Origin: Candidatus Woesearchaeota archaeon
GTDB lineage: Archaea; Nanobdellota; Nanobdellia; Woesearchaeales; GW2011-AR4
Direction of reading: 5' to 3'
Length of the DNA stretch: 31,811 nt
Assembly (NCBI GenBank): GCA_016185875.1
Contig: JACPMS010000042.1
Coordinates: 1 to 31,811 of the forward strand
Of the stretch, positions 1-17,012 are shown piece after piece (the first letter of the stretch is position 1; each line of letters begins with the position of its first letter). The notes under the pieces were generated by a model that made no database searches, was not told the origin of the DNA, and saw nothing but the letters and a program-made list of their open reading frames with translations. Made by a program: the position numbers and the translations under genes.

Positions 1-1543
1 TTGCTGAATCTCCTTCAACGCCTTCATGGGTTTGCAGGAATTGAACATAGATGTCGTGCTTCTCCTTCAAATCTTCTCCAAAGTATTTCTTGATTATTGC
101 AGTCACATTTTTTATGGCTTCCTTTGCAATGTCACCGAGCTTTCCAGTTGCTATAATCTCGCTTTCTTTTCCTCCTGGCGTTACTTCTGACTCAATAGGC
201 AGAATAATTCCTGAAAAAGGCGGCACAACTCCAATAACAGCAAGGCCGTTCACCCTTCCAACTCTTTTGCCGCTTGTGACAATAACCTCATATTCTTTCT
301 TTTGCTCGATATATTTGTCAGCCAGCTGCTGCTCAAGGGTCCTTGCAATTTTCTTGGCTCCAACAATGTGTTTTTTCATAACAAGCTTTGATTTTTCTTC
401 CATAGCCATGTCGCCAGCAGCCCTTATCAGGCCGCCAAGCTCCCTTAGCCTTAATGTTAAGTGCCCTTTTCTGTTGGCCCTTCTTCTTGCTTCTTCAACA
501 ATCGCCTCAACAGCTTCCCTGCTGAAATGCGGGATTTTTTTGTCTTTTACAACTTCCTGCGCAACAAAAACAGCAATTTTATCCCTGTTTTCTTCAGTAT
601 CTGGTATAGTTTCCTTCATGTAGACTTCATACCCATAGCCGGAAATCCTGCTTCTTAGCGCAGGATGCATGTGCTTGATTGTTTCAAGGTTGCCTGCAGC
701 GACCATTACAAAATCACACGGCACAGGCTCTGTCCTGACCATTGCGCCTGCGCTCCTCTCGCTCTGCCCGGTAATTGCAAATTTCTTTTCCTGCAAGGAA
801 GACAGCAATTCCTGCTGCGTTGCCGGCTGCAAAGTTGCAATCTCGTCAATAAATAGCACCCCCATATGGGATTTGTGGATCATCCCTGCAACAACCCTTT
901 CATGAGCTGGAGTGCCCAAGCCTCCGCTTTGGAAGGGGTCATGCAAGACATCCCCAAGCAAGGCGCCTGCATGCGCTCCGGTTGCATCATTGAAAGGAGA
1001 CTGTTTTCTCCTGTAATTGTCAACAATAAGCCTTGGTATCTTTACCCTGTTCTCCATTCTTTTGCCCAGGTTGAGGAATATTGCAAATGCAACCAAAAAA
1101 ACAGTGCCTCCCAAAAAGAATGCAGCAAACATTATGTCGGATTTGTAATAAGAGCGCGCCCACCACGGAGCAAACATCGCAATAAGCACCAGAATGAACA
1201 TAATGATGTTCTGGTTCTTGAACATGGTCATGCTTTGCAGCCTTGCCTTTGCTATCAAATCCCTGCCTTGCCCAGCTGGAATTGTCCTTATCAATGGCAT
1301 GTTCTCGTCATTTGGATTTGGGAATGAAACAATGTCGACAAGCTTTTCCATCGGCAAAAGCTCTGCCAAAGCAAAGCCAAGCATTGACTTGCCGGTGCCG
1401 GGCTCGCCAATCAACAGAACATGCCTTCTCTGCTGGGCTGCCTTCTTTACGACTTCAACACCTTCATCCTGGCCTATGACCTGGTCTATGAGCCTTTTAG
1501 GTATCTTTATATCTGCAGTTGAATTGAATTTTAAGCTAGCCAT
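1..1543 (-). CDS. lonB: ATP-dependent Lon protease, archaeal membrane-bound LonB type (3' end runs off the window)
   Basis: Not in the ORF track because it has no stop in the window. Manual translation from ATG at 1543 gives MASLKFNSTADIKIPKRLIDQVIGQ..., Walker A GEPGTGKS, a transmembrane insert, Walker B VLFIDEI and catalytic-Ser region HDIYVQFLQTHEGVEGDSA at the left edge. Confidence 0.95.
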   Translation of the reverse strand, partial: MASLKFNSTADIKIPKRLIDQVIGQDEGVEVVKKAAQQRRHVLLIGEPGTGKSMLGFALAELLPMEKLVDIVSFPNPNDENMPLIRTIPAGQGRDLIAKARLQSMTMFKNQNIIMFILVLIAMFAPWWARSYYKSDIMFAAFFLGGTVFLVAFAIFLNLGKRMENRVKIPRLIVDNYRRKQSPFNDATGAHAGALLGDVLHDPFQSGGLGTPAHERVVAGMIHKSHMGVLFIDEIATLQPATQQELLSSLQEKKFAITGQSERSAGAMVRTEPVPCDFVMVAAGNLETIKHMHPALRSRISGYGYEVYMKETIPDTEENRDKIAVFVAQEVVKDKKIPHFSREAVEAIVEEARRRANRKGHLTLRLRELGGLIRAAGDMAMEEKSKLVMKKHIVGAKKIARTLEQQLADKYIEQKKEYEVIVTSGKRVGRVNGLAVIGVVPPFSGIILPIESEVTPGGKESEIIATGKLGDIAKEAIKNVTAIIKKYFGEDLKEKHDIYVQFLQTHEGVEGDSA

Positions 1544-3594
1544 CCCGCTATTGTAAGTGTTTGTGCATTTTTAAAGGTTGCGTTTAATTCCTGCAAATCC
1601 TTAACCATATAAACCCCTTCCAATTCGTAGCCAATCTTTCTAAAGTATTCTCTCGCTCCGATTCCAGATAGAATAACCATCTTGTCTTTGCCGTTTTGCC
1701 TTGCAATCTCTTCTGCTTTAATTAAAAGAGACCTTCCTATGCCCTTGTGTTGAAAAGATGCTTCATCTTTTTTTCCAATCTGGACTGACGGGGAAAACAC
1801 ATGCAATTCCCTTATTAATGCAGAATCTTTTGTGATTTCATCCCTTAAAAACTGCGATGGAAACCTCAGCCTGCAAAAGCCAAACAAGACATCATTTGCC
1901 AAATCCTCTGCTGCAATGAAAATTTCTTTTCCTTGAGATGCTTCGTATTCCGTGACTGTTGTTTGGATATTATTAAAATTTATTTTTTTATTGCTTTTAA
2001 TGAAAAATCCAGCTTCCCTGCACCTAATGCATTTGCATTTGATATTTTTTTCAATGCAAATTTTTTCAACATACTGCCTCAAATTTGTTCGGTCAACTCC
2101 GGAAGCTGTCACAAATGTCGGTATGTCCCTTTGAACTCGCATTATCCTGCACCATTTTGGGACATGCTGCTTTGCCCCTGCTATTATTCCTGCTGCTTCT
2201 TTTGTGGTCAATGGAGTGAATTTTCCAGCTTTCCAATCCTCATATAATTTTGTTCCTTCCATCACCATGCAAGGGTAAATCTTCAGCATGTCTGGACGAT
2301 AATCGGGATTTTCAAATAATTGCTTTAAGCCATGCAAATCCATCTCTTTTGTCGTCAGAGGAAGCCCTGGCATATAATGGGCATTAATTTTGAATCCCAA
2401 GTCCTTCAAAATACTTATCGACTCGATGTTGTCATTGACTGTATTGCCCCTGCTAGTTGCTTCAAGAACATCGTCATAAATGCTTTGCACTCCAATTTCA
2501 ACCCTTGTGCACCCCAATTCCAGCATCAAATTCCCATGATAGAGCTTTCCAAAGTCGCTTTTTGTCTCTATAGTCAAGCCGACGCACCTTATAAAAGAAG
2601 TTTCATTTTCTTTCTGCATTTGTTTTAATGTAATATTTTTGTTGTCTTCATTATTTAATTTTTGTTGAATATGTTTAATTGAAGTGGTATTTGGATTTTG
2701 AATCGAATTTTCAATGATGCTTAGTTTTGTATTTTGTTCTGACACATTTATTTCATTTGCATTATTGTACTCTATCTTTCTTAACGCATTAAAATTTTGA
2801 ACATTATTTATTTTAAAAAAATCACCTATAAAAACATCATCTCCAAAAAACAAATACTCCGCTTTTTCCTTAACTTTCAAATTATTTAAATCCAAGTTTT
2901 TGATGTACAATAGTTTTTGCTGGGTTTTTTTAATTCTTTTATCCTCTTCGCTTAATACTCTGGGAAGTTCAAAGAATTTCTTGAATTTCAAAATATCCAG
3001 GTTTCCATCCTTGCTAAAAAACAATCTTGAGAAGTCGTTCATCGCCTTCAGCGCGTATTTGACAAAATATTCCTGATAAGCCTTTGGGAAAAAAGTGAAT
3101 GTCCCGCCCTGAATGATTATTTCAGCCTTGTCCGGCACTCTGCCCATGGCAACATAATGCTCAAGCCTGTTGAACACAATCAGGTAAGGGTCATAACTGT
3201 TTCTTATCGCCCTTCTTGTTGACGGCTCTTTTCCTGTATAGCTTTGGGGAACATTGCCAAATGCAGAGCCAGGCCCGCCAGGGCAGTACGTGCAAGGGCC
3301 GATGCCCTGCATGGTATGGGGGCAAGGATAAGGCTCTGACATCAATGCAATTGGCGCAACCCCGCTTATTGTCCTTACTGGCTTTAGGGAAAGCAGCTCC
3401 TTGAATTTTTCCCTTTCATTATCAGAAGCTGCAAGGTAAATATCGGCATTTTTCGGTATTTGTTTTAAGTTCGCCTTTGACTTATATTTACTCAATATTT
3501 TTAATTTTGTTTGGGTTAATTCATGTTGTGTTTTAATACTATTTTTTTTTAGTTCTTCTAGTATTTCAACACATACTTGTTGGAATTTGTCCAT
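1531..3594 (-). CDS. elp3: Elp3 tRNA wobble-uridine acetyltransferase (radical SAM + GNAT) with an AT-rich in-frame insertion
   Basis: CPH...CTYCPGG cluster motif, QSYTGKEP, RVEIGVQS, KIYPC, RVQRDIP, ALIRELHV, FQHKGIG. Overlaps the lonB start by 13 nt. Confidence 0.95.
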   Translation of the reverse strand: MDKFQQVCVEILEELKKNSIKTQHELTQTKLKILSKYKSKANLKQIPKNADIYLAASDNEREKFKELLSLKPVRTISGVAPIALMSEPYPCPHTMQGIGPCTYCPGGPGSAFGNVPQSYTGKEPSTRRAIRNSYDPYLIVFNRLEHYVAMGRVPDKAEIIIQGGTFTFFPKAYQEYFVKYALKAMNDFSRLFFSKDGNLDILKFKKFFELPRVLSEEDKRIKKTQQKLLYIKNLDLNNLKVKEKAEYLFFGDDVFIGDFFKINNVQNFNALRKIEYNNANEINVSEQNTKLSIIENSIQNPNTTSIKHIQQKLNNEDNKNITLKQMQKENETSFIRCVGLTIETKSDFGKLYHGNLMLELGCTRVEIGVQSIYDDVLEATSRGNTVNDNIESISILKDLGFKINAHYMPGLPLTTKEMDLHGLKQLFENPDYRPDMLKIYPCMVMEGTKLYEDWKAGKFTPLTTKEAAGIIAGAKQHVPKWCRIMRVQRDIPTFVTASGVDRTNLRQYVEKICIEKNIKCKCIRCREAGFFIKSNKKINFNNIQTTVTEYEASQGKEIFIAAEDLANDVLFGFCRLRFPSQFLRDEITKDSALIRELHVFSPSVQIGKKDEASFQHKGIGRSLLIKAEEIARQNGKDKMVILSGIGAREYFRKIGYELEGVYMVKDLQELNATFKNAQTLTIAGWLA

Positions 3595-3649
3595 AAATCA
3601 TAGGATTAAATTTTTGATATATAAATGTTCACTTAATGCCATGGCTAAA

Positions 3650-4228
3650 CTAAATATTGTTTCCAATGATAAGAATAACAAAAATCCCAGCAGTATTCAA
3701 AATATAGGAGATAACAGAAAATATTTTCATTGAAATTGTTTTGGAAGCAACCAATAACGAAACTCCAATTTCGTCTGGTAACGGAGAAGCGATTATAAAA
3801 CCAGCTAAAACAGGTACAAGATATTTTTTAAAGATATTGGGAGTTTTGTGATTCAAATACAAAACAATTTTTTCTTTTGACAATTTTTTAAGTTCAGTAT
3901 CTAAGGAATATCTAACAAACATAAAAATAATCAAGTCCCCTGTTAAAGCGCCGAAGCCGCCAATAATGCCGGCTAAAAGAATATTTTGCTCTTTTGCTAA
4001 AATCAATAAGATGGCTGTTGCTGGCGCTGCAGTAAAACCATAAGCAAATAATGCGCCAGCCAAAAATGTGCCAACGTAACCGATTGAAATGATAAAATTG
4101 TGAAATGGTTGGTAATTCCTTTCATAGAATAAAAGGTATGCAATCATGAAAGTTATAATCAATAATAAAAATTTAGGATATTTTATTAATAGTCTATTTA
4201 CAGAATTTTTATTCCTGTTTTTAATCAT
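3650..4228 (-). CDS. Multi-pass membrane protein, possibly DedA/VTT-like
   Basis: 192 aa with several hydrophobic helices and IIASPLPDEIGV. Directly downstream of the P-type ATPase. Confidence 0.6.
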   Translation of the reverse strand: MIKNRNKNSVNRLLIKYPKFLLLIITFMIAYLLFYERNYQPFHNFIISIGYVGTFLAGALFAYGFTAAPATAILLILAKEQNILLAGIIGGFGALTGDLIIFMFVRYSLDTELKKLSKEKIVLYLNHKTPNIFKKYLVPVLAGFIIASPLPDEIGVSLLVASKTISMKIFSVISYILNTAGIFVILIIGNNI

Positions 4229-4245
4229 TTTGTTTTTTATTTTTT

Positions 4246-6870
4246 CTAAGCTTCTATTAGCTCTTTTTTTGATTTAATGTATTTTGATATCTCAATTGTA
4301 ATCGCCCCAATACTTGATACCAATACTATGAAAATAAACTCAAAAATGCTTAATGGCGACATATCCAAAAACTTTCCAAAGGAAGGAATAAATATCGAGG
4401 TAACAACCACACTAAATGAGCTTAAAACTGCCAAAATCAAAAATTTATTTTTGAAGATCCCTACTTTGACTGCAGGATAAATTGTTGAGCGTGAGGCAAA
4501 TGCTTGATAAAGCTCAAACATGCTAATTGTTAGAAAGGTTGCTGTCTGTGCCTGAAAAAGATTTTCTTTTATAAAATAAAACCAGCTGAAAATTAATAAA
4601 GCAGTAATAGTCATAACAATTGGATAATATACAAGAAATGGGTTAAGCCCTTTGAATATCGGCTCGTCTTGTTTGCGCGGCTTTCTTGACATTGCATTTG
4701 GTTCGTAAGGGTCGGCACTTAATGCAAGGGCAGGCAAACCGTCTGTAACGAGGTTGATAAGCAATATCTGAGTAGCTGTTAATGGCAAAGGAAGTCCAAA
4801 AATAATTCCAAGGAATATTATTAGAACTTCGCCTATATTGCCTGATAGAAGAAAACCAATGTATTTTCTTATGTTATCATATACACCACGTCCTTCTTCA
4901 ACTGCATTTACTATAGATGCAAAATTGTCATCTGTTAATATCATTGCGCTTGCTTCCTTGCTCACATCGGTCCCTGTAATTCCCATTGCAATTCCAATAT
5001 CAGCTTTCTTTAATGCAGGTGCATCGTTTACGCCATCGCCAGTCATCGCAACAATATGTCCTTTTTTCTTCAATGCATCAACTATCTTTATCTTGTGCTC
5101 CGGATTTACTCTGGCGTATATTGAAATGTCCGCAACCCAGTCATCAAGATTTTTTATTTCATCAAGCTGCTGCCCATTTATAACTTTCCCGCTTAATCCA
5201 ATTTCTTTTGCAACAGCCCTTGCAGTTATTTCATGATCCCCCGTAATCATGATTACTTTAATGCCTGCTTTTTTGCATTTCTCAATGGCTATTTTTACCT
5301 CTTCTCTTGGAGGGTCAATCATTCCCTGCAATCCTGCAAAGATAAGGTTTTTTTCAGGATCTTTATCAGTAACAATGGTCTTGTAAGCAAAACCAAGGAC
5401 CCTTAACGCTTCATCAGCAAATTCTTTGTTTGTTTCAAGAATCTCTCTTTTCATTTCTTCGGTTAATTTCTCGGTCATTCCATTTATGCAGATATAATTG
5501 CACTGCTTTAGCACAACTTCAGGGGCGCCTTTGACAAAAGCAATTTTTTCGCCATGATGCTTATGCACAGTTGTCATCATCTTTCTTTCGCTTGTGAATT
5601 CTATTTCTTCAACCCTGGGCCACTCTAATTCCAAGTCTTCTTTCATTAAGCCAGCCTTTGCGGCGCTTACAATCAAACACCCTTCAGTCGGGTCGCCAAT
5701 CAAGTTGCTGTCTTTTAGCTCAGCATTGTTGTTTAAAGCGCCAATTCTCAAGAGAAACTCTACCTCATCAAATCCAATTTGCTTGTTTTTATACAAGAAT
5801 TGCCCTTTTGTTTCATAGCCTGTCCCGGTAACTTCAACAACTTTGCCATTGACGAATAATTTTTTAACCGTCATCTCATTTGCTGTTAATGTGCCTGTCT
5901 TGTCAGTGCATATGACGGTTGTAGAGCCAAGAGTTTCAACGCTTGGCAATCTTCTTACCAGCGCATTTCGCTTAAGCATTCTTTGCGTGCCTAATGCGAG
6001 AGCCATGGTGACAATTGCAAGCAAAGCCTCTGGAATTGCAGCTACCGCTACAGCAACGGCAACTATCAAATTATCGAGCAAAGATTTTTCTTGAAAGATG
6101 CTTGCAACAGCAAAAATTATAACTGCAATTGCCATCACAACTTTCCCAATCAATTTTCCAAGATCATCCATCTTCTTTTGCAAAGGAGTAGGCTCAGGCT
6201 TAACCTCTTCCATCATAGTTGCTATTTTGCCAATTTCTGTTTGCATTCCTGTTGTTATAACAACAGCTTTTGCCCTTCCGCTAACAACAATAGTACTAGA
6301 AAATACAATATTCTTCATGTCAGCAATTGGAATTTTTTCCGGCAGAGCATCCGTGTTTTTCTTTACCGGCTGCGACTCGCCTGTCAAAGCAGCTTCCTGC
6401 GTTTGAAAATTGATTGCCTCAAATAATCGCGCATCAGCTGGAACTTTATCGCCTGTTTCCAGAACAATGATGTCGCCTGGCGCAATTTGCCTTGCATCAA
6501 CCTCCTTTTTTTGGCCATCTCTGATTACGGTTGCTTTTAGCGAAGCGAGTTTTTTCAAAGCCTCAATTGACTTTTCTGCGCGGTACTCCAGAATAAAACC
6601 CAAAACTGAAATTAGAATAATTATTACTAGAATTACAATAGCGTCAATGTATTCTTTAAGAAAAGCAGATATAATTGTCGCTGCAATCAAAATCCACACT
6701 ACAACGCTATTAAACTGCTCAATGAAAATTTTCAGGGGAGAAATCCTTTTTTCTTCCTTAATTTCATTTAAGCCGTATTGCTTCAGCCTTTCATCTGCCT
6801 CTGGCTGGGAAATGCCTTTATCTGTTACCTTTAATTCTTTGAAAACTTCGCTTATTGGTTTGTGGTGCAT
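4246..6870 (-). CDS. P-type cation-transporting ATPase (type II, Ca2+-ATPase-like)
   Basis: TGES, PEAL, DKTGTLT phosphorylation site, KGAPE, MITGD, TGDGVNDAPALKKADIG. Confidence 0.95.
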   Translation of the reverse strand: MHHKPISEVFKELKVTDKGISQPEADERLKQYGLNEIKEEKRISPLKIFIEQFNSVVVWILIAATIISAFLKEYIDAIVILVIIILISVLGFILEYRAEKSIEALKKLASLKATVIRDGQKKEVDARQIAPGDIIVLETGDKVPADARLFEAINFQTQEAALTGESQPVKKNTDALPEKIPIADMKNIVFSSTIVVSGRAKAVVITTGMQTEIGKIATMMEEVKPEPTPLQKKMDDLGKLIGKVVMAIAVIIFAVASIFQEKSLLDNLIVAVAVAVAAIPEALLAIVTMALALGTQRMLKRNALVRRLPSVETLGSTTVICTDKTGTLTANEMTVKKLFVNGKVVEVTGTGYETKGQFLYKNKQIGFDEVEFLLRIGALNNNAELKDSNLIGDPTEGCLIVSAAKAGLMKEDLELEWPRVEEIEFTSERKMMTTVHKHHGEKIAFVKGAPEVVLKQCNYICINGMTEKLTEEMKREILETNKEFADEALRVLGFAYKTIVTDKDPEKNLIFAGLQGMIDPPREEVKIAIEKCKKAGIKVIMITGDHEITARAVAKEIGLSGKVINGQQLDEIKNLDDWVADISIYARVNPEHKIKIVDALKKKGHIVAMTGDGVNDAPALKKADIGIAMGITGTDVSKEASAMILTDDNFASIVNAVEEGRGVYDNIRKYIGFLLSGNIGEVLIIFLGIIFGLPLPLTATQILLINLVTDGLPALALSADPYEPNAMSRKPRKQDEPIFKGLNPFLVYYPIVMTITALLIFSWFYFIKENLFQAQTATFLTISMFELYQAFASRSTIYPAVKVGIFKNKFLILAVLSSFSVVVTSIFIPSFGKFLDMSPLSIFEFIFIVLVSSIGAITIEISKYIKSKKELIEA

Positions 6871-11362: not shown

Positions 11363-12511
11363 CTAATCCAAAAACTCAATTCCAAGGTGCTGCTCAATCT
11401 CCTTTTTTTTCTTGTCAGCTGTTTTCTTTGTGGAGCCGAATATCTGGGAAGATTTCACCCCAGTTACTATGAGCATTGTCCTTATCGTCTTGTCCATGTC
11501 CTTGTAGATTTGAGCGCCCCAGATGACTCTTGCGTCTTCATCAAGCTTTTCTGTAATTGTCTCAACAACTTTTCTTGCTTCATCAAGCGTCATGTCTTCC
11601 CCGCCAATGACATTAATCAAAGCCCCGTTAGCGCCTGAAATGTCGACATCAAGCAATGGGTTGTTTATAGCTTTCTCGACAGCTTCTATTGCCCTGTTTT
11701 CAGTGTCGCTTTCTCCAACACCAATTAAAGCCACTCCACCGCCTTTCATAACAGCCCTTATGTCTGCAAAATCAAGATTTACCAAGCCAGCTTTTGTCAC
11801 AAGCTCTGCAATGCCTTTGACTGCATTAGTCAATATTTCATCAGCAACCTTGAAAGCAGTGTGCAATGGAAGTTCCGGAGCTAACTCAAGCAATTTATCA
11901 TTGGGAATCACAATCAAGGTGTCTGCAACCTGCTCCATTTTTTCCAAGCCAACGACTGCATTTTCATACCTTCTGTGGCCCTCCATTGAAAAGGGCATTG
12001 TTACAACTCCAACTGTCAAAGCGCCAAGCTTTTTGGCTACCTCAGCAACAACTGGAGCAGAACCTGTTCCTGTCCCTCCGCCTAAGCCGCATGTGACAAA
12101 TACCATGTCACAGCCCTGAAGGGCCTTTTTGATGTCTGTTTCATTTTCACGGGCTGCCTCTTCTCCAAGCCTTGGCTCTGAGCCAGCTCCAAGCCCTTTT
12201 GTGAGCTCCCTTCCTATCAGGATTTTCTTATTTGCTGTTGTGTACAGCAAGTCCTGGGCATCTGTGTTGACAGCTATTGTCTCTGCACCTACAATTCCAA
12301 CTTCGCTCATTCTGTTGATTGTGTTGTTGCCCCCTCCGCCGCAGCCAACAACCTTTATCGTAGCCCTTTGCCTTGCCAGCAACTGCTCGAGCTCTGCATC
12401 TATGTTTTGCACTTCCTTATCCCGGGGAAGTTGCCTATTATCAATAGAAAGAAGTTTAGGATTATCGTTATGCAATTCAGCTTCCATTGCCTGCTCAATT
12501 ATAGTGGACAC
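11363..12511 (-). CDS. ftsZ: Cell division protein FtsZ (FtsZ1 type by context)
   Basis: [25 protein letters not shown] tubulin signature, NLDFAD. Confidence 0.97.
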
Positions 12512-12571
12512 AAACTCACCCTTTTATTATCCTTGTTATTATTGCGGAATGGTTTATACTACTATTTAAAT

Positions 12572-13240
12572 TTATTTGTTTTTCTCTTGCGGAATAGTAA
12601 AATCCACTTTTTTTATGCTCGGTATTGAAATCTCGACAATTTTCTTGAACTCTTCCTGTGCCTGACTGGGTATGGTTTCTTTTAGCCTTATTTCTGCTGA
12701 TTCGTCTTTTAACTCTATTTCGGCGTTTTTAATGTGCAAATGCAATTTTAACAGCGAATTCAATTTTTCTTTTGCATCGTCAACAATCCTGTTTATTTTT
12801 ACATCATAGACAATGTCCTTGCCTGCCAAAGGATGGTTGAAGTCTACAAGGCATCTTCCTCCGCTGACAATCTTGACAACGCCAAAAACGCCGTCGATGT
12901 TTAATTGCAAGCCAGGAACCGGCTGTATGTTCTGCTGCCTGAATTTGTTTGTTGGAATAAGCTGTATAAGTTTTGCATTTCTTTTTCCAAAGGCATTCTC
13001 AGAGCTTATCTCAAATGTGTATTCCTTTTCAGTCTCCTTCCCAAGCATCTGCTCGTCAAGAGCCTTTAAAATATTGGCTTCGCCAATGCAGATGACAACA
13101 GGCTCGTAATCTGAGCTCTTGTCATACAATTTGTTATCCTTTGCAATTTTCTCATAAGTTGTGTCAAATACTGCGCTGTCTTCCCTGAGCCTTCCTGTAT
13201 ATTCTATTTCCACAAAATCGTGGTTTTTTATTATTGACAT
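12572..13240 (-). CDS. FKBP-type peptidyl-prolyl cis-trans isomerase (long archaeal/SlyD-like)
   Basis: FVEIEYTGR, VFDTT, AFGKR, VDFNHPLAGK. Likely start is ATG 13240 (the ORF track extends it to 13276). Confidence 0.9.
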   Translation of the reverse strand: MSIIKNHDFVEIEYTGRLREDSAVFDTTYEKIAKDNKLYDKSSDYEPVVICIGEANILKALDEQMLGKETEKEYTFEISSENAFGKRNAKLIQLIPTNKFRQQNIQPVPGLQLNIDGVFGVVKIVSGGRCLVDFNHPLAGKDIVYDVKINRIVDDAKEKLNSLLKLHLHIKNAEIELKDESAEIRLKETIPSQAQEEFKKIVEISIPSIKKVDFTIPQEKNK

Positions 13241-13277
13241 ATTGGTAGAAAAATAGTTAGTGGGACAAAGCAACAAT

Positions 13278-13826
13278 TTATAAAGATTTCTGCTTGGTTT
13301 TCACAAACTTTACTATCTTCTCAACAACTTGATTAGGATTTAGTTTTGTCGTGTCAATCACATAATTATACAATTTCTTGTCCAGATAATTCACCCCATA
13401 ATACTTTTTGTACCTTTTCTTCTCGCTTTCCTCCCTTTTTTTGATGTTTGCTGCTGTTTCTTTCAGGCTTTTGCTTTTTTCCTGCTGCCTCCTGTCCTTC
13501 AGGATTCTTTCTGCCCTCACTTTGTCGTCAGCGCTGAGAAAAACCCTTACATCTGCATTTGGGATGAAAAAAGCAGTCAGCCTTCCGTCAACCACAAAAT
13601 TGTCCTTGGTTTTTCCCATTTCTTTCAGCTTGTTGTCCAGCTCAAAATCTATTGACTTGTCCTTTTCAGCCAGTTTGTTAAGCTCAAGCAGAGCCATTCC
13701 CTTTTCTGCTGCCATTGCCCGCATCAAGTCTCCTATAGAATAATGCCTTAGCTTAAGCTTTTCAGACAGCAATCTTGCAATAGTGCTTTTTCCTGAGCCT
13801 GCCTTTCCAGAGATTGTTATTATCAT
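13278..13826 (-). CDS. cmk: Cytidylate kinase, archaeal type
   Basis: MIITISGKAGSGKST P-loop, VVDGRL, RYKKYYG, VIDTT. Confidence 0.9.
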   Translation of the reverse strand: MIITISGKAGSGKSTIARLLSEKLKLRHYSIGDLMRAMAAEKGMALLELNKLAEKDKSIDFELDNKLKEMGKTKDNFVVDGRLTAFFIPNADVRVFLSADDKVRAERILKDRRQQEKSKSLKETAANIKKREESEKKRYKKYYGVNYLDKKLYNYVIDTTKLNPNQVVEKIVKFVKTKQKSL

Positions 13827-13927
13827 AAATTACTAATTTGGCAATTGGTTTATAATATTTTGTTTTTTTGAATGGGATTTTTAGCCAATAACAACATTTT
13901 TAAATGATAATTTTTTCTATTCCCTCT

Positions 13928-14791
13928 ATGAAGCAAACATTGCTTGATAAAGTAGGCATCTTTTTGCTGAGGAAAGGGTTTACCATAAAAAATCTGACAA
14001 GGACGTGTTTTGACGCACTTGCAAGAAAAAATGGGCAGATTCTTCTCATAAAGGTTCTTGAGGATGCAAACTCCATCAGCAGGCAGTACACAGAGGAGAT
14101 GATTGCCGTAGCATCATACATAAATGCATCGCCTTTGGTAATAGCGGAAAAAGCAGGAGGGAAACTGGAAAACAACATTGTTTACTCAAGATTTGACATT
14201 TACACTGTGAATTTCAGCACATTTTTGAGCTGCGTGAACAATAAGTTCCCTTTTATCAAGAGAAGCAAGGCTGGATTGACAGCCTCTGTTGTGGGCAGAA
14301 AGCTGAAAGAGAAAAGAGAGGAGCTTGGCTACTCCCTGAATGCACTGTCAAAAAAGCTTGGCGTGACAAGCAGGATGGTAATGAAGTATGAGAATGAAAA
14401 TTCCGAAGTGACAATCAGCAGGGCATTGAAGCTGTATGATTTGTTCGGGGAGAATGTCTTCAACGAAGTCAATGTCTTTGTGCAGCACGAGCAGCTTAAA
14501 AGCAAGTTTGAGACAGAGGTTTCAAGAAAATACGTGGAGCTAGGCTTTGACGCGACTGAAACAAAGAAAACCCCTTTTGACATCATTGCAAGGAAAGGCA
14601 ATGAATTGATTCTCACAGAGGTCAGCGACAAAGTAGACCCGCAAATGAAGTCACTGTCAATGCTGTTGGAAGCTGACAACCTGGTTATTTTCCAGAAGAA
14701 AAAGCCGAAGAACATTCCATCAATGACAAAGCAAGAGTTTTTGGATTTTGAGAAGTCAAATGAACTGGTCAGGTTTTTGAAGGAGTTTTAG
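13928..14791 (+). CDS. Archaeal HTH (Cro/C1-type) transcriptional regulator with PD-(D/E)xK-like flanking domains
   Basis: FDALARKNGQILLIKVLED, central HTH KREELGYSLNALSKKLGVTSRMVMKYE, TPFDIIAR. This family is usually found upstream of thermosome genes. TTTTAAA precedes ATG 13928. Confidence 0.8.
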   Translation: MKQTLLDKVGIFLLRKGFTIKNLTRTCFDALARKNGQILLIKVLEDANSISRQYTEEMIAVASYINASPLVIAEKAGGKLENNIVYSRFDIYTVNFSTFLSCVNNKFPFIKRSKAGLTASVVGRKLKEKREELGYSLNALSKKLGVTSRMVMKYENENSEVTISRALKLYDLFGENVFNEVNVFVQHEQLKSKFETEVSRKYVELGFDATETKKTPFDIIARKGNELILTEVSDKVDPQMKSLSMLLEADNLVIFQKKKPKNIPSMTKQEFLDFEKSNELVRFLKEF

Positions 14792-15212
14792 AATTCTGAT
14801 AAGCTGAATAAAAGACCCTCATTAATTTTAGGAATGGGTCATTTCTATTTGTAGTGTAAACACCCTCAATCATTAAAGTTCGTTTGCCTTTATGGTCAGT
14901 TTTGATAGCTCTCGGAAAAGATTCATCTAGGATATAAACACTCGCAAAATAGTGATAATCACCAAAAAACAATCTTCTGTAATTGAATTCTATACCCCTA
15001 TCAATATCACCACTATTATTTAATTTTTGTCTTATTTTATAATTTCTAGATTTAGGTATTTCATGCTCTAGATTTTCCAGAATAACTTCTGCAACACTCT
15101 CGTCTAATAAGAACTTGTATCTTCTAAGAGTTGGAGAATCTTCGTCTTTCTCACGCAGTATACCATCACTTTCTGTATTTTTTAAGATGCCATCTAACGT
15201 CAAATGTTTCAT
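14769..15212 (-). CDS. Hypothetical protein (AT-rich orphan)
   Basis: 147-aa ORF on the opposite strand between the HTH regulator and the thermosome gene. Confidence 0.55.
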   Translation of the reverse strand: MKHLTLDGILKNTESDGILREKDEDSPTLRRYKFLLDESVAEVILENLEHEIPKSRNYKIRQKLNNSGDIDRGIEFNYRRLFFGDYHYFASVYILDESFPRAIKTDHKGKRTLMIEGVYTTNRNDPFLKLMRVFYSAYQNSKTPSKT

Positions 15213-15331
15213 TAGTATAATTTAAACTCAATTATTTTTAAACCTTTCCATTCTTTACTTTTATTTAGTAACGACAAAAAAACAAAACCTTTATATAGAA
15301 CCAAATATGCACAATTTTCGGTGGTTTTATA

Positions 15332-16945
15332 ATGAATCAAGTACAGCCAATATTCATATTGCCGGAAGGCACGCAGAGAAGCGTAGGAAGAGACGCGCAA
15401 AGAACTAACATAATGGCTGCCAAGATAGTGGCAGAAACTGTCAGAACAACTCTTGGCCCAAAAGGAATGGATAAGATGATTGTTGACAGCATGGGAGATG
15501 TTACTGTTACAAATGACGGAGTTACAATTCTTGAGGAAATGCAGATTGAGCATCCTTCAGCAAAGATGATTGTTGAGGTTGCAAAAACACAGGAAGATGA
15601 GGTTGGATTGGCTGGAGAGTTATTGAAGAATGCTGAAGAGCTTCTGGATAAGGATGTGCATCCTGCAATAATCGCCAGAGGATTTAGATTGGCTGCAATC
15701 AAAGCCAATGAAATTCTGGAAAACATATCAGAGCCTGTCTCTGAAAAGGACGACAAAATGCTGAAGCAGATTGCAATGACTGCAATGACAGGCAAGGGCG
15801 CTGAAACTTCAAAAGAAAAGCTGAGCGAAATAACTGTAAAGGCTGTGAAGGATGTCATGGAAAAAGCAGGCAATGGCATAGTGATTGATAAAGATAACAT
15901 AAAGCTTGAGAAAAAAGCTGGAGGCAGGGTTGATGAAACAGAGCTTGTGCAGGGGATTGTTCTTGACAAGGAAAGGGTTCATGCAACAATGCCTAAATCC
16001 GTCAAAAATGCAAGAATCTTGCTGCTGGATTCTGCGCTTGAAATAAAAGACACTACAACAAGCGCGAAAATAAAGATAAAAAATCCAATGCAGATGCAGA
16101 CTTTTCTGGACCAGGAAGAAAAAATGCTGAAAGACATGGCTGAAAAGATTGCCAAGCTGAATGCAAATGTTGTTTTCTGCCAGAAGGGCATTGATGATGC
16201 TGTGCAGCACTATCTTGCCAAGAAGGGGATTTATGCTGCTAGGCGTGTCAAGGAGTCTGACATGAAAGCCTTGACAAAAGCTACAGGCGCATCAATAGTG
16301 TCAAATCTTGATTCTGTCAGCGAGAAAGAGCTGGGAAAAGCAGGATTAGTTGAGGAAGTTAAGATAGGAGATGACAGCATGACTTTTGTTAGGGAATGCA
16401 AAAACCCGAAGTCTGTCACTATTTTAGTAAAAGGCTCGACAAAGCATGTTGTTGACGAAATAAAAAGGGCAATGGACGATGCGATTGGGGATGTTTCTGC
16501 TGCCCTCAAAGATGGAAGGGTGGTCGCTGGAGCTGGCTCGACAGAGATAGAATTGGCGAGACAATTAAGAAAATTTTCAGAGTCATTAAGCGGAAGAGAG
16601 CAGCTTGCAGCTGATGTTTTTGCAAAAGCGATTGAAATTATACCAAAGACGCTGGCAGAGAATGCCGGCTTGGATTCAATTGATGTTTTGACCGAGTTAA
16701 GGGCTTCCCATGACAAAAAGCAGAAATGGGCCGGAATTGATGTTTTTACAGGCAAGGTTATTGATGCCTGGCACAAAGGAATCATTGAGCCGCTGAAGAT
16801 AAAGACTCAGGCTGTTAGCTCAGCTTCGGAAGTTGCAATCATGATTTTAAGAATTGATGATGTTGTGGCTGGAAGCAAGAAAGAGGCAATGCCCCAGATG
16901 CCTCCTCAAGGCATGGGAATGGGCGGAATGCCTCCGATGATGTGA
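15332..16945 (+). CDS. ths: Thermosome (group II chaperonin) subunit, lacking the GDGTTT motif as assembled
   Basis: TTLGPKGMDKM, VTNDG, EHPSAKM, FCQKGIDD, TLAENAG, ILRIDD and Gly/Met tail. Reads EDEVG-LAGELL where EVGDGTTTAVVLAGELL is expected. Confidence 0.93.
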   Translation: MNQVQPIFILPEGTQRSVGRDAQRTNIMAAKIVAETVRTTLGPKGMDKMIVDSMGDVTVTNDGVTILEEMQIEHPSAKMIVEVAKTQEDEVGLAGELLKNAEELLDKDVHPAIIARGFRLAAIKANEILENISEPVSEKDDKMLKQIAMTAMTGKGAETSKEKLSEITVKAVKDVMEKAGNGIVIDKDNIKLEKKAGGRVDETELVQGIVLDKERVHATMPKSVKNARILLLDSALEIKDTTTSAKIKIKNPMQMQTFLDQEEKMLKDMAEKIAKLNANVVFCQKGIDDAVQHYLAKKGIYAARRVKESDMKALTKATGASIVSNLDSVSEKELGKAGLVEEVKIGDDSMTFVRECKNPKSVTILVKGSTKHVVDEIKRAMDDAIGDVSAALKDGRVVAGAGSTEIELARQLRKFSESLSGREQLAADVFAKAIEIIPKTLAENAGLDSIDVLTELRASHDKKQKWAGIDVFTGKVIDAWHKGIIEPLKIKTQAVSSASEVAIMILRIDDVVAGSKKEAMPQMPPQGMGMGGMPPMM

Positions 16946-17012
16946 AAATCAGAATAGAATAACTAAAACTCATCTACGAAAAATCAATAACCAAACTAGG
17001 ATAGAAAAAAAT

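What the first reader, a model, noticed from the sequence alone, without database searches (positions are those of the whole stretch)
15590..15625. Thermosome subunit with a clean in-frame loss of the GDGTTT ATP-binding loop
Seen in sequence: ...GAG GTT GGA|TTG GCT GGA GAG... encodes EVG-LAGE, about 8 residues (DGTTTAVV) shorter than the near-invariant EVGDGTTTAVVLAGE, and the frame is preserved. The rest of the gene looks intact. Established: GDGTTT binds the nucleotide phosphates and Mg2+ in all chaperonins. Inference: either an ATPase-dead structural or holdase subunit, a recent deleterious deletion, or an assembly error.
Basis: partly seen in the sequence, partly recalled or inferred. Interest (0 to 1): 0.7.

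Follow-up and report, generated by a model that had tools for sequence, protein, structure and literature searches.

The report
Thermosome gene missing its ATP loop
The assembled chaperonin (thermosome) gene of this small groundwater archaeon really lacks the 24 bases that encode its ATP-binding loop. No other sequence examined shares the gap, and contigs of the same strain disagree with it at that spot, so it is most likely an assembly error or a rare variant, not a new kind of chaperonin.

Summary
The ORF at 15332-16945 (+) is a full-length group II chaperonin, and it reads EVG|LAGE where every relative reads EVG-DGTTTAVV-LAGE. The 24-nt, codon-aligned gap lies between 15607 and 15608.

The gap is private to this assembly. 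It is absent from 29 relatives' loci, 119 of 119 nearest full-length homologues, all 146 diverse representatives that cover the site, 119 partial proteins and a syntenic sister contig (92-93% nt identity). A degenerate DNA pattern for the gapped form matched nothing in two large collections.

The rest of the gene shows no decay. All other nucleotide-site motifs are kept, and the terminal branch is no longer than the sister's.

The gene lies in a stretch that many co-occurring Woesearchaeota share. In four public groundwater runs holding this strain, an own-depth contig fits the window up to 15602 and then continues with 18 letters unlike the window. That is the pattern expected of an intact allele.

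My reading:
- about 60%: local assembly error or minority molecule;
- about 30%: real, very recent strain-private loss-of-function deletion, possibly buffered by a second paralogue that four of the eight other clade-A genomes carry;
- about 5%: a functional ATP-dead subunit.

Raw reads were not available, so the question is not settled.

The parts
15332..16945 (+). Thermosome (group II chaperonin) gene, paralogue clade A of this Woesearchaeota-like genus; 537 aa as assembled
   Evidence: Pfam PF00118 with E 1.3e-173 over profile positions 1-487 of 490. PDB 3kfb with E 7.8e-192 from end to end. Falls in clade A with 100/100 support in the tree.
15599..15613 (+). Junction E90-V91-G92 | L93-A94. 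The 24 nt coding DGTTTAVV are missing between 15607 and 15608.
   Evidence: The sister contig L033 has the 24 nt (GAT GGA ACA ACA ACT GCT GTT GTT) at this point.
15452..15466 (+). LGPKG nucleotide-site motif (L41-G45), retained
   Evidence: Translation; invariant columns.
15509..15520 (+). TNDG motif (T60-G63), retained
   Evidence: Translation; invariant columns.
16478..16480 (+). D383, the counterpart of the residue that differs between the two best PDB chains (DD in 3kfb, DA in 5w74); retained. That it is the catalytic Asp (D386 of the M. maripaludis chaperonin) is from my own knowledge.
   Evidence: Alignment to 3kfb and 5w74; invariant column D383.
15335..15602 (.). Stretch shared almost letter for letter with many co-occurring relatives (an assembly 'hub')
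   Evidence: Summed word depth is 290-4950 here, against about 5-30 for this organism's own contigs in four runs (tables 2 and 8).
16240..16249 (+). Patch of six synonymous differences (codons for A-R-R-V) between the window and all own-depth contigs of the four runs
   Evidence: table 3 (other_depth equals all_depth in X1-X4); one search shows that all six changes are synonymous.

Best explanation
The gene is an ordinary, selectively maintained thermosome gene. The 24-nt gap is most likely not the genotype of the population. It would be either a local assembly error or a rare or chimeric molecule that the assembler followed, in a stretch of the gene that many co-occurring Woesearchaeota share nearly letter for letter. 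Shown: the gap is present in the assembly, it is unique, the gene is otherwise undecayed, the region is a hub, and same-strain contigs depart from the window at the site. Inferred: how the assembler produced the join. One possibility is that it joined two graph pieces that end at third-codon-position branch points, which would always look clean and in frame.
For: (1) The gap is unique. It is absent from 29 relatives' loci, 119/119 nearest homologues, all 146 diverse representatives that cover the site, 119 partial proteins and the syntenic sister contig L033 at 92-93% nt identity. A degenerate pattern for the gapped junction gave 0 hits in genome contigs and metagenome contigs (the window's own record may be left out).
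(2) There is no sign of relaxed constraint. The protein has one deviation at conserved columns against a family median of 2. Its terminal branch is 0.028 against 0.021 for the sister. It is the only one of 120 sequences with a core deletion longer than 3 aa.
(3) In one search, X4 record 28 (205 nt, depth 30.6, similar to this organism's other contigs there, 1 mismatch) fits 15602-15788. It then has 18 further letters to the left that do not fit the window. Those 18, plus the 6 letters laid on GTTGGA, make 24. X1 record 3 likewise starts at 15602 only from its second letter. In X2, 11 contigs that fit the left flank continue with GAC GG. ACA ACA ACA GCA GTT GT. (table 7).
(4) The site lies at the edge of a hub with word depth 290-4950. 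Thermosome genes are missing from 16 of 43 MAGs of this genus and cut at contig ends in others. The near relative G019 has a contig that stops 8 codons before the site.
(5) The same gene has a second local disagreement with all four runs, at 16240-16249.
(6) Both breakpoints lie just after wobble bases that vary among relatives.
(7) Local assembly errors that no read supports are documented in MAGs (PMC7111523).
Against: Only Logan contigs could be laid, not raw reads, and contigs drop rare variants. I could not read the 18 unmatched letters of X4 record 28, so calling it an intact allele rests on length and position alone. A de Bruijn graph cannot make this junction without words that span it, and there is no usable overlap at the breakpoints (0-1 nt). 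An error would therefore need a scaffolding, merging or gap-closing step, or a real chimeric molecule. The assembler and source run are unknown to me. The window also differs from the four runs at 16240-16249, so its source may be another sample in which a gap-bearing strain dominates.
Confidence: 0.6

Rival explanations
1. The deletion is real and very recent, private to one strain, and inactivates the clade-A thermosome paralogue (a loss-of-function allele on its way to becoming a pseudogene). It is tolerated because the lineage also has a clade-B thermosome.
For: The junction stands in the longest contig of the assembly, with identical same-strain sequence on both sides. Graph assemblers normally need real words across a junction. 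G003, G017, G021 and G048 carry both clade A and clade B genes, and their B copies group together, so redundancy is plausible. The lack of decay fits a very young event.
Against: No second thermosome is present in this assembly, which is 63% complete. G006 (93% complete) has clade A alone. The own-depth contig in X4 departs from the window at the site, and the one in X1 begins there with a letter that does not fit. No microhomology of 2 nt or more is present to explain slippage. No other record carries the junction.
Confidence: 0.3
2. The protein is a functional, naturally ATP-dead subunit. It co-assembles with a clade-B subunit into a mixed ring, or acts as a passive holdase.
For: The frame is kept and every other motif is intact. 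In yeast, GDGTT to AAAAA in Cct6 has little effect (PMC3268035), so mixed rings can carry a dead subunit.
Against: A selected trait should be shared by relatives or show adaptive change, and neither is seen. In the T. acidophilum thermosome, point mutations of the P-loop Asp and last Thr already disturb ring formation, and blocking ATP binding in either subunit stops hydrolysis by the complex (PMC5983026). Here the whole loop and three residues beyond it are missing. The AlphaFold2 model of the gapped protein has pLDDT below 50 for residues 1-91. The intact sister, folded with the same 27-row alignment, scores in the 70s for residues 21-40 and 71-100. This last point is a weak indicator only.
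Confidence: 0.05

Closest known systems
Methanococcus maripaludis group II chaperonin (Mm-cpn; PDB 3kfb, 3rus and others)
   Same: Alignment from end to end with E 7.8e-192. LGPKG, TNDG, the Asp counterpart (D383), the apical lid region and the Gly/Met-rich C-terminal tail all match.
   Different: The window's protein lacks the eight residues DGTTTAVV, which are the nucleotide-binding P-loop and the three residues after it.
Intact clade-A thermosome of the sister species (P0002, contig L033) and of G017, G006, G003 and G021
   Same: 94-96% aa and 92% nt identity to P0002, with the same gene neighbourhood (FtsZ, FKBP, kinase-like, HTH/PDDEXK genes).
   Different: All of them have the 24 nt. The window alone does not.
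Engineered P-loop mutants: yeast CCT subunits (GDGTT to AAAAA) and T. acidophilum thermosome alpha/beta point mutants
   Same: They show what a subunit without a working P-loop does. It is tolerated in Cct6 and lethal in Cct1 (PMC3268035). In the archaeal alpha/beta complex it disturbs assembly and blocks ATP cycling (PMC5983026).
   Different: Those are laboratory substitutions that keep the chain length. This would be a natural 8-residue deletion.
Local assembly errors in metagenome-assembled genomes (Chen et al. 2020, PMC7111523)
   Same: Consensus sequence that reads do not support, which yields wrong protein sequences in public MAGs. It is expected where the sequence is not unique.
   Different: Read support could not be examined here, so this case is not proven to belong to that class.

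Membership tests
Group II chaperonin / thermosome (Pfam PF00118 Cpn60_TCP1) | Full-length match to the family profile and to solved thermosomes | tested here: met
   PF00118 at 578.7 bits (cut-off 34.3), covering profile positions 1-487 of 490. 3kfb with E 7.8e-192.
Group II chaperonin / thermosome (Pfam PF00118 Cpn60_TCP1) | GDGTT(T) P-loop of the equatorial nucleotide site | tested here: not met
   Only the first G (G92) remains and DGTTTAVV is absent from the assembled sequence. By descent the gene is a thermosome gene. As assembled, its product fails this functional criterion.
Group II chaperonin / thermosome (Pfam PF00118 Cpn60_TCP1) | Other nucleotide-site motifs: LGPKG, TNDG, the Asp counterpart, and the Gly-rich loop (AGAGS in this clade) | tested here: met
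   L41-G45, T60-G63, D383 and G400/G402 are present and lie in invariant or nearly invariant columns.
Group II chaperonin / thermosome (Pfam PF00118 Cpn60_TCP1) | Built-in lid (apical helical protrusion) instead of a GroES partner | tested here: met
   The alignment with 3kfb across residues 205-310 has no gap. The model has confident apical-domain secondary structure.
Group II chaperonin / thermosome (Pfam PF00118 Cpn60_TCP1) | Double-ring assembly and ATP-driven closure | not testable with these tools
   Needs the purified protein, tested by native gel or EM and an ATPase assay.
Local assembly error of a MAG | No read supports the consensus across the junction | tested here: inconclusive
   Only contigs of four runs could be laid. 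An own-depth contig in X4 departs from the window at 15602, and one in X1 begins there with a letter that does not fit. Raw reads were not available.
Naturally nucleotide-dead chaperonin paralogue | Loss of the loop shared by a clade and maintained by selection | tested here: not met
   The gap is a singleton among all sequences examined.

The most novel reading that the evidence does not exclude
A DPANN archaeon with two thermosome paralogues has turned one of them into a P-loop-less, nucleotide-blind subunit. This subunit still enters the ring, making it a natural archaeal counterpart of the low-ATP-use subunits of eukaryotic CCT.
Probability: 0.05. Interest if true: 0.6.

Novelty: not a real feature. 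Interest (0 to 1): 0.15.

Why it matters
If the gap were real and functional, it would be the first natural group II chaperonin subunit without a nucleotide-binding loop. It would then bear on how unequal ATP use among ring subunits evolved. As the evidence stands, its main value is as a caution. Highly conserved genes in communities with many close relatives are where MAG consensus sequences are least reliable, and a clean in-frame loss of a catalytic motif there should be checked against reads before it is interpreted or passed into protein databases.

Tried and rejected
- Junction-only search for runs (window 15578-15637): only 2 sampled words, and none was listed. This is no evidence either way.
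- Bridging contigs: no listed contig bridges 15607|15608 in the gapped form, and no 24-letter insertion row appears. Own-strain contigs break in this hub, so this hole proves nothing.
- Short protein fragments of the same strain: P0001:93-160 found nothing. P0001:1-200 found only fragments of at most 88% identity, all with the loop.
- Slipped-strand deletion between direct repeats: rejected. The breakpoints share 0-1 nt.
- A specific scaffolder rule (short-overlap merging, recalled from memory): not supported. The only N-run in the genome is one of 30 N, in C54, which says nothing about this join.
- Imprecise loss of an intein: rejected. An intein-like insert does sit in the P-loop of a distant thermosome (P0137), but the sister at 92% nt identity has no insert.
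- Branch-wise nonsynonymous and synonymous counts: 12/53 for the window against 7/64 for the sister. The method is crude, the counts overlap and no clear difference emerges.
- Earlier notes of this scan: nothing bears on this gene.
- AlphaFold2 contrast: kept only as a weak hint, because such models do not reliably report the effect of a deletion.

Full report
**What is there.** The ORF at 15332-16945 (+) encodes a 537-aa protein. It matches Pfam Cpn60_TCP1 over profile positions 1-487 of 490 (E 1.3e-173). It also aligns from end to end with solved archaeal group II chaperonins, best with the M. maripaludis chaperonin 3kfb (E 7.8e-192). In that alignment one 8-residue gap lies exactly opposite 'dgtttavv'. 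In window coordinates E90 is 15599-15601, V91 is 15602-15604, G92 is 15605-15607 and L93 is 15608-15610, so the breakpoint is 15607|15608.

**The organism.** Sources name the nearest homologues as Woesearchaeota or Nanoarchaeota. The assembly has 770 kb in 95 contigs and is 63% complete. The window is its longest contig.

**How unusual the gap is.**
- All 29 relatives' loci that could be read at the site encode GDGTTTA(V/I/A)(V/I/L).
- Among the 120 best full-length database homologues, 119 of 119 others have D, G, T, T, T, A and V in these columns. P0001 is the only sequence with a core deletion longer than 3 residues.
- The nearest protein, P0002 (94-96% identical), lies on a 10.3-kb contig with the same gene order and 92-93% nt identity. 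It has the 24 nt in place.
- Among 150 representatives of 50%-identity clusters, every one that covers the site (146) keeps an xDGxxx loop, apart from one GDDAIA variant. None has a gap there.
- All but one of 120 partial proteins show the loop in a motif scan. The exception (P0273) has an internal duplication that pushes the site outside the 60-residue stretch scanned.
- A degenerate DNA pattern for the gapped junction (K-T-Q-D/E-D/E-E-V-G-x-A-G-E) found nothing in 185,579 species genomes or in the JGI metagenome contigs. The window's own record may be left out of those scans.

**State of the rest of the gene.** LGPKG, TNDG, the counterpart of the Asp that differs between the 3kfb and 5w74 chains (D383), and the clade's AGAGS loop are all present. 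The protein deviates from columns that are at least 95% conserved at one position only (P449S), where the family median is 2. In a maximum-likelihood tree its terminal branch (0.028) is about as short as the sister's (0.021). Whatever happened is very young, or it did not happen in the organism.

**Paralogues.** The tree shows two clades of thermosome within the genus, each with 100/100 support.
- Clade A holds the window, its sister, G017, G006, G003, G021, G053, G047 and one copy of G048.
- Clade B holds 16 rows.
- G003, G017, G021 and G048 carry both clades, and their B copies group together.
- This assembly holds only the one gene and no other DNA coding DGTTT, but 37% of the genome is unaccounted for.
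- G006, at 93% completeness, has clade A alone.

A buffering second copy is therefore plausible but not shown.

**Evidence from public runs.** Four groundwater runs of one study hold 69-78% of the sampled words of 15000-17000. Only Logan contigs could be laid on the window.
- The organism's own contigs have depth of about 5 in X1-X3 and about 22-38 in X4. They match the window with 0-1 mismatches over 15000-15520 and 15608-16139.
- Between 15335 and 15602 the summed depth rises to 290-4950, because many related organisms share this sequence.
- X4 record 28 (205 nt, depth 30.6, 1 mismatch) fits 15602-15788 and then has 18 more letters to the left that do not fit the window. If the contig carried the gapped form, those letters would match 15584-15601.
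- Eighteen letters plus the six laid on GTTGGA make 24, the size of the missing piece, so the contig would begin at its first base.
- X1 record 3 fits from its second letter at 15602, so its first letter is not the G of 15601.
- In X2, 11 contigs that fit the left flank go on with the loop-coding sequence (table 7).
- I could not see the 18 letters themselves, and contigs cannot show rare variants. This is good evidence that the dominant allele of this strain in X4, and probably in X1, is not the window's junction. It is not proof that the junction is absent from the reads.

**Further signs that the gene is hard to assemble.**
- All four runs differ from the window by six synonymous changes within 16240-16249, in the conserved A-A-R-R-V codons, while the flanking 570 nt agree.
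- In this genus 16 of 43 MAGs have no thermosome match and several have genes cut at contig ends. G019, a near relative, has a contig that stops 8 codons before the site.
- Both breakpoints follow third-codon positions that vary among relatives. Strain branch points in an assembly graph fall at such positions, so a join between them would always look clean and in frame.
- Chen et al. 2020 (PMC7111523) describe local assembly errors, meaning consensus that no read supports, as a regular source of wrong protein sequences in MAGs.

**Against an artefact.** A pure k-mer graph needs words that span the junction, and the breakpoints share no useful overlap. An error would therefore need a scaffolding or merging step, or a real chimeric or rare molecule. 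I know neither the assembler nor the source run.

**Consequences if the gap is real.**
- GDGTT is the conserved nucleotide-binding motif of all chaperonins, and GroEL D87 mutants lose ATPase activity (PMC3268035).
- In the T. acidophilum alpha/beta thermosome, mutations of the P-loop Asp and last Thr disturb ring formation. Blocking ATP binding in either subunit stops hydrolysis by the whole complex (PMC5983026).
- In yeast, GDGTT to AAAAA is tolerated in Cct6 but lethal in Cct1.
- A deletion of the loop plus three further residues is harsher than any of these.
- AlphaFold2 gives pLDDT below 50 for residues 1-91 of the gapped protein. The intact sister, folded with the same 27-row alignment, scores in the 70s for residues 21-40 and 71-100. 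This is a weak hint of a disturbed equatorial domain.

**Verdict.** My estimates are:
- about 0.6 that the gap is an assembly error or a minority molecule;
- about 0.3 that it is a real, recent, strain-private loss-of-function deletion;
- about 0.05 that it is a functional ATP-dead subunit.

Raw reads across 15607|15608 would decide it.

Noticed in passing
window 16240-16249: Six synonymous differences within 10 nt (GCT AGG CGT GTC in the window, GCC CGA AGG GTA in the runs). They separate the window from all own-depth contigs of the four public runs, while the flanks agree. This is either a small recombination tract or a strain mosaic in the assembly.
   Followed up: partly
loci L003-L006, L033-L044 (relatives' thermosome genes): The genus has two well-separated thermosome clades, A and B, each with 100/100 support. 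Four genomes carry both, and most carry one.
   Followed up: partly
protein P0137 (863 aa, representative): A thermosome with an insert of about 330 residues inside the P-loop (GDG ... TTS). The insert ends in THN followed by T, as inteins do, and has no Pfam match at E 0.001 or better.
   Followed up: partly
proteins P0121 (1057 aa) and P0126 (1047 aa): Two representatives of about twice the normal length, each matching the query in two stretches. P0121 also matches Cpn60_TCP1 in two stretches. They are either tandem thermosome fusions or gene-calling read-through.
   Followed up: no
genus-wide: 16 of 43 MAGs of the genus have no chaperonin match, including ones 90-92% complete, and several have genes cut at contig ends. 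The gene appears to be systematically hard to assemble or bin in these communities.
   Followed up: no
own genome, contig C54 18937-18966: The only N-run of the assembly (30 N). It is flanked on both sides by GAGCAGGCAA, so it is a scaffold gap or a masked stretch inside a short repeat.
   Followed up: no
window 11363-14791: The genes upstream of the thermosome (FtsZ, FKBP-type isomerase, a cytidylate-kinase-like protein, and a protein with HTH and PDDEXK_19 domains) keep the same order in the sister contig L033.
   Followed up: partly
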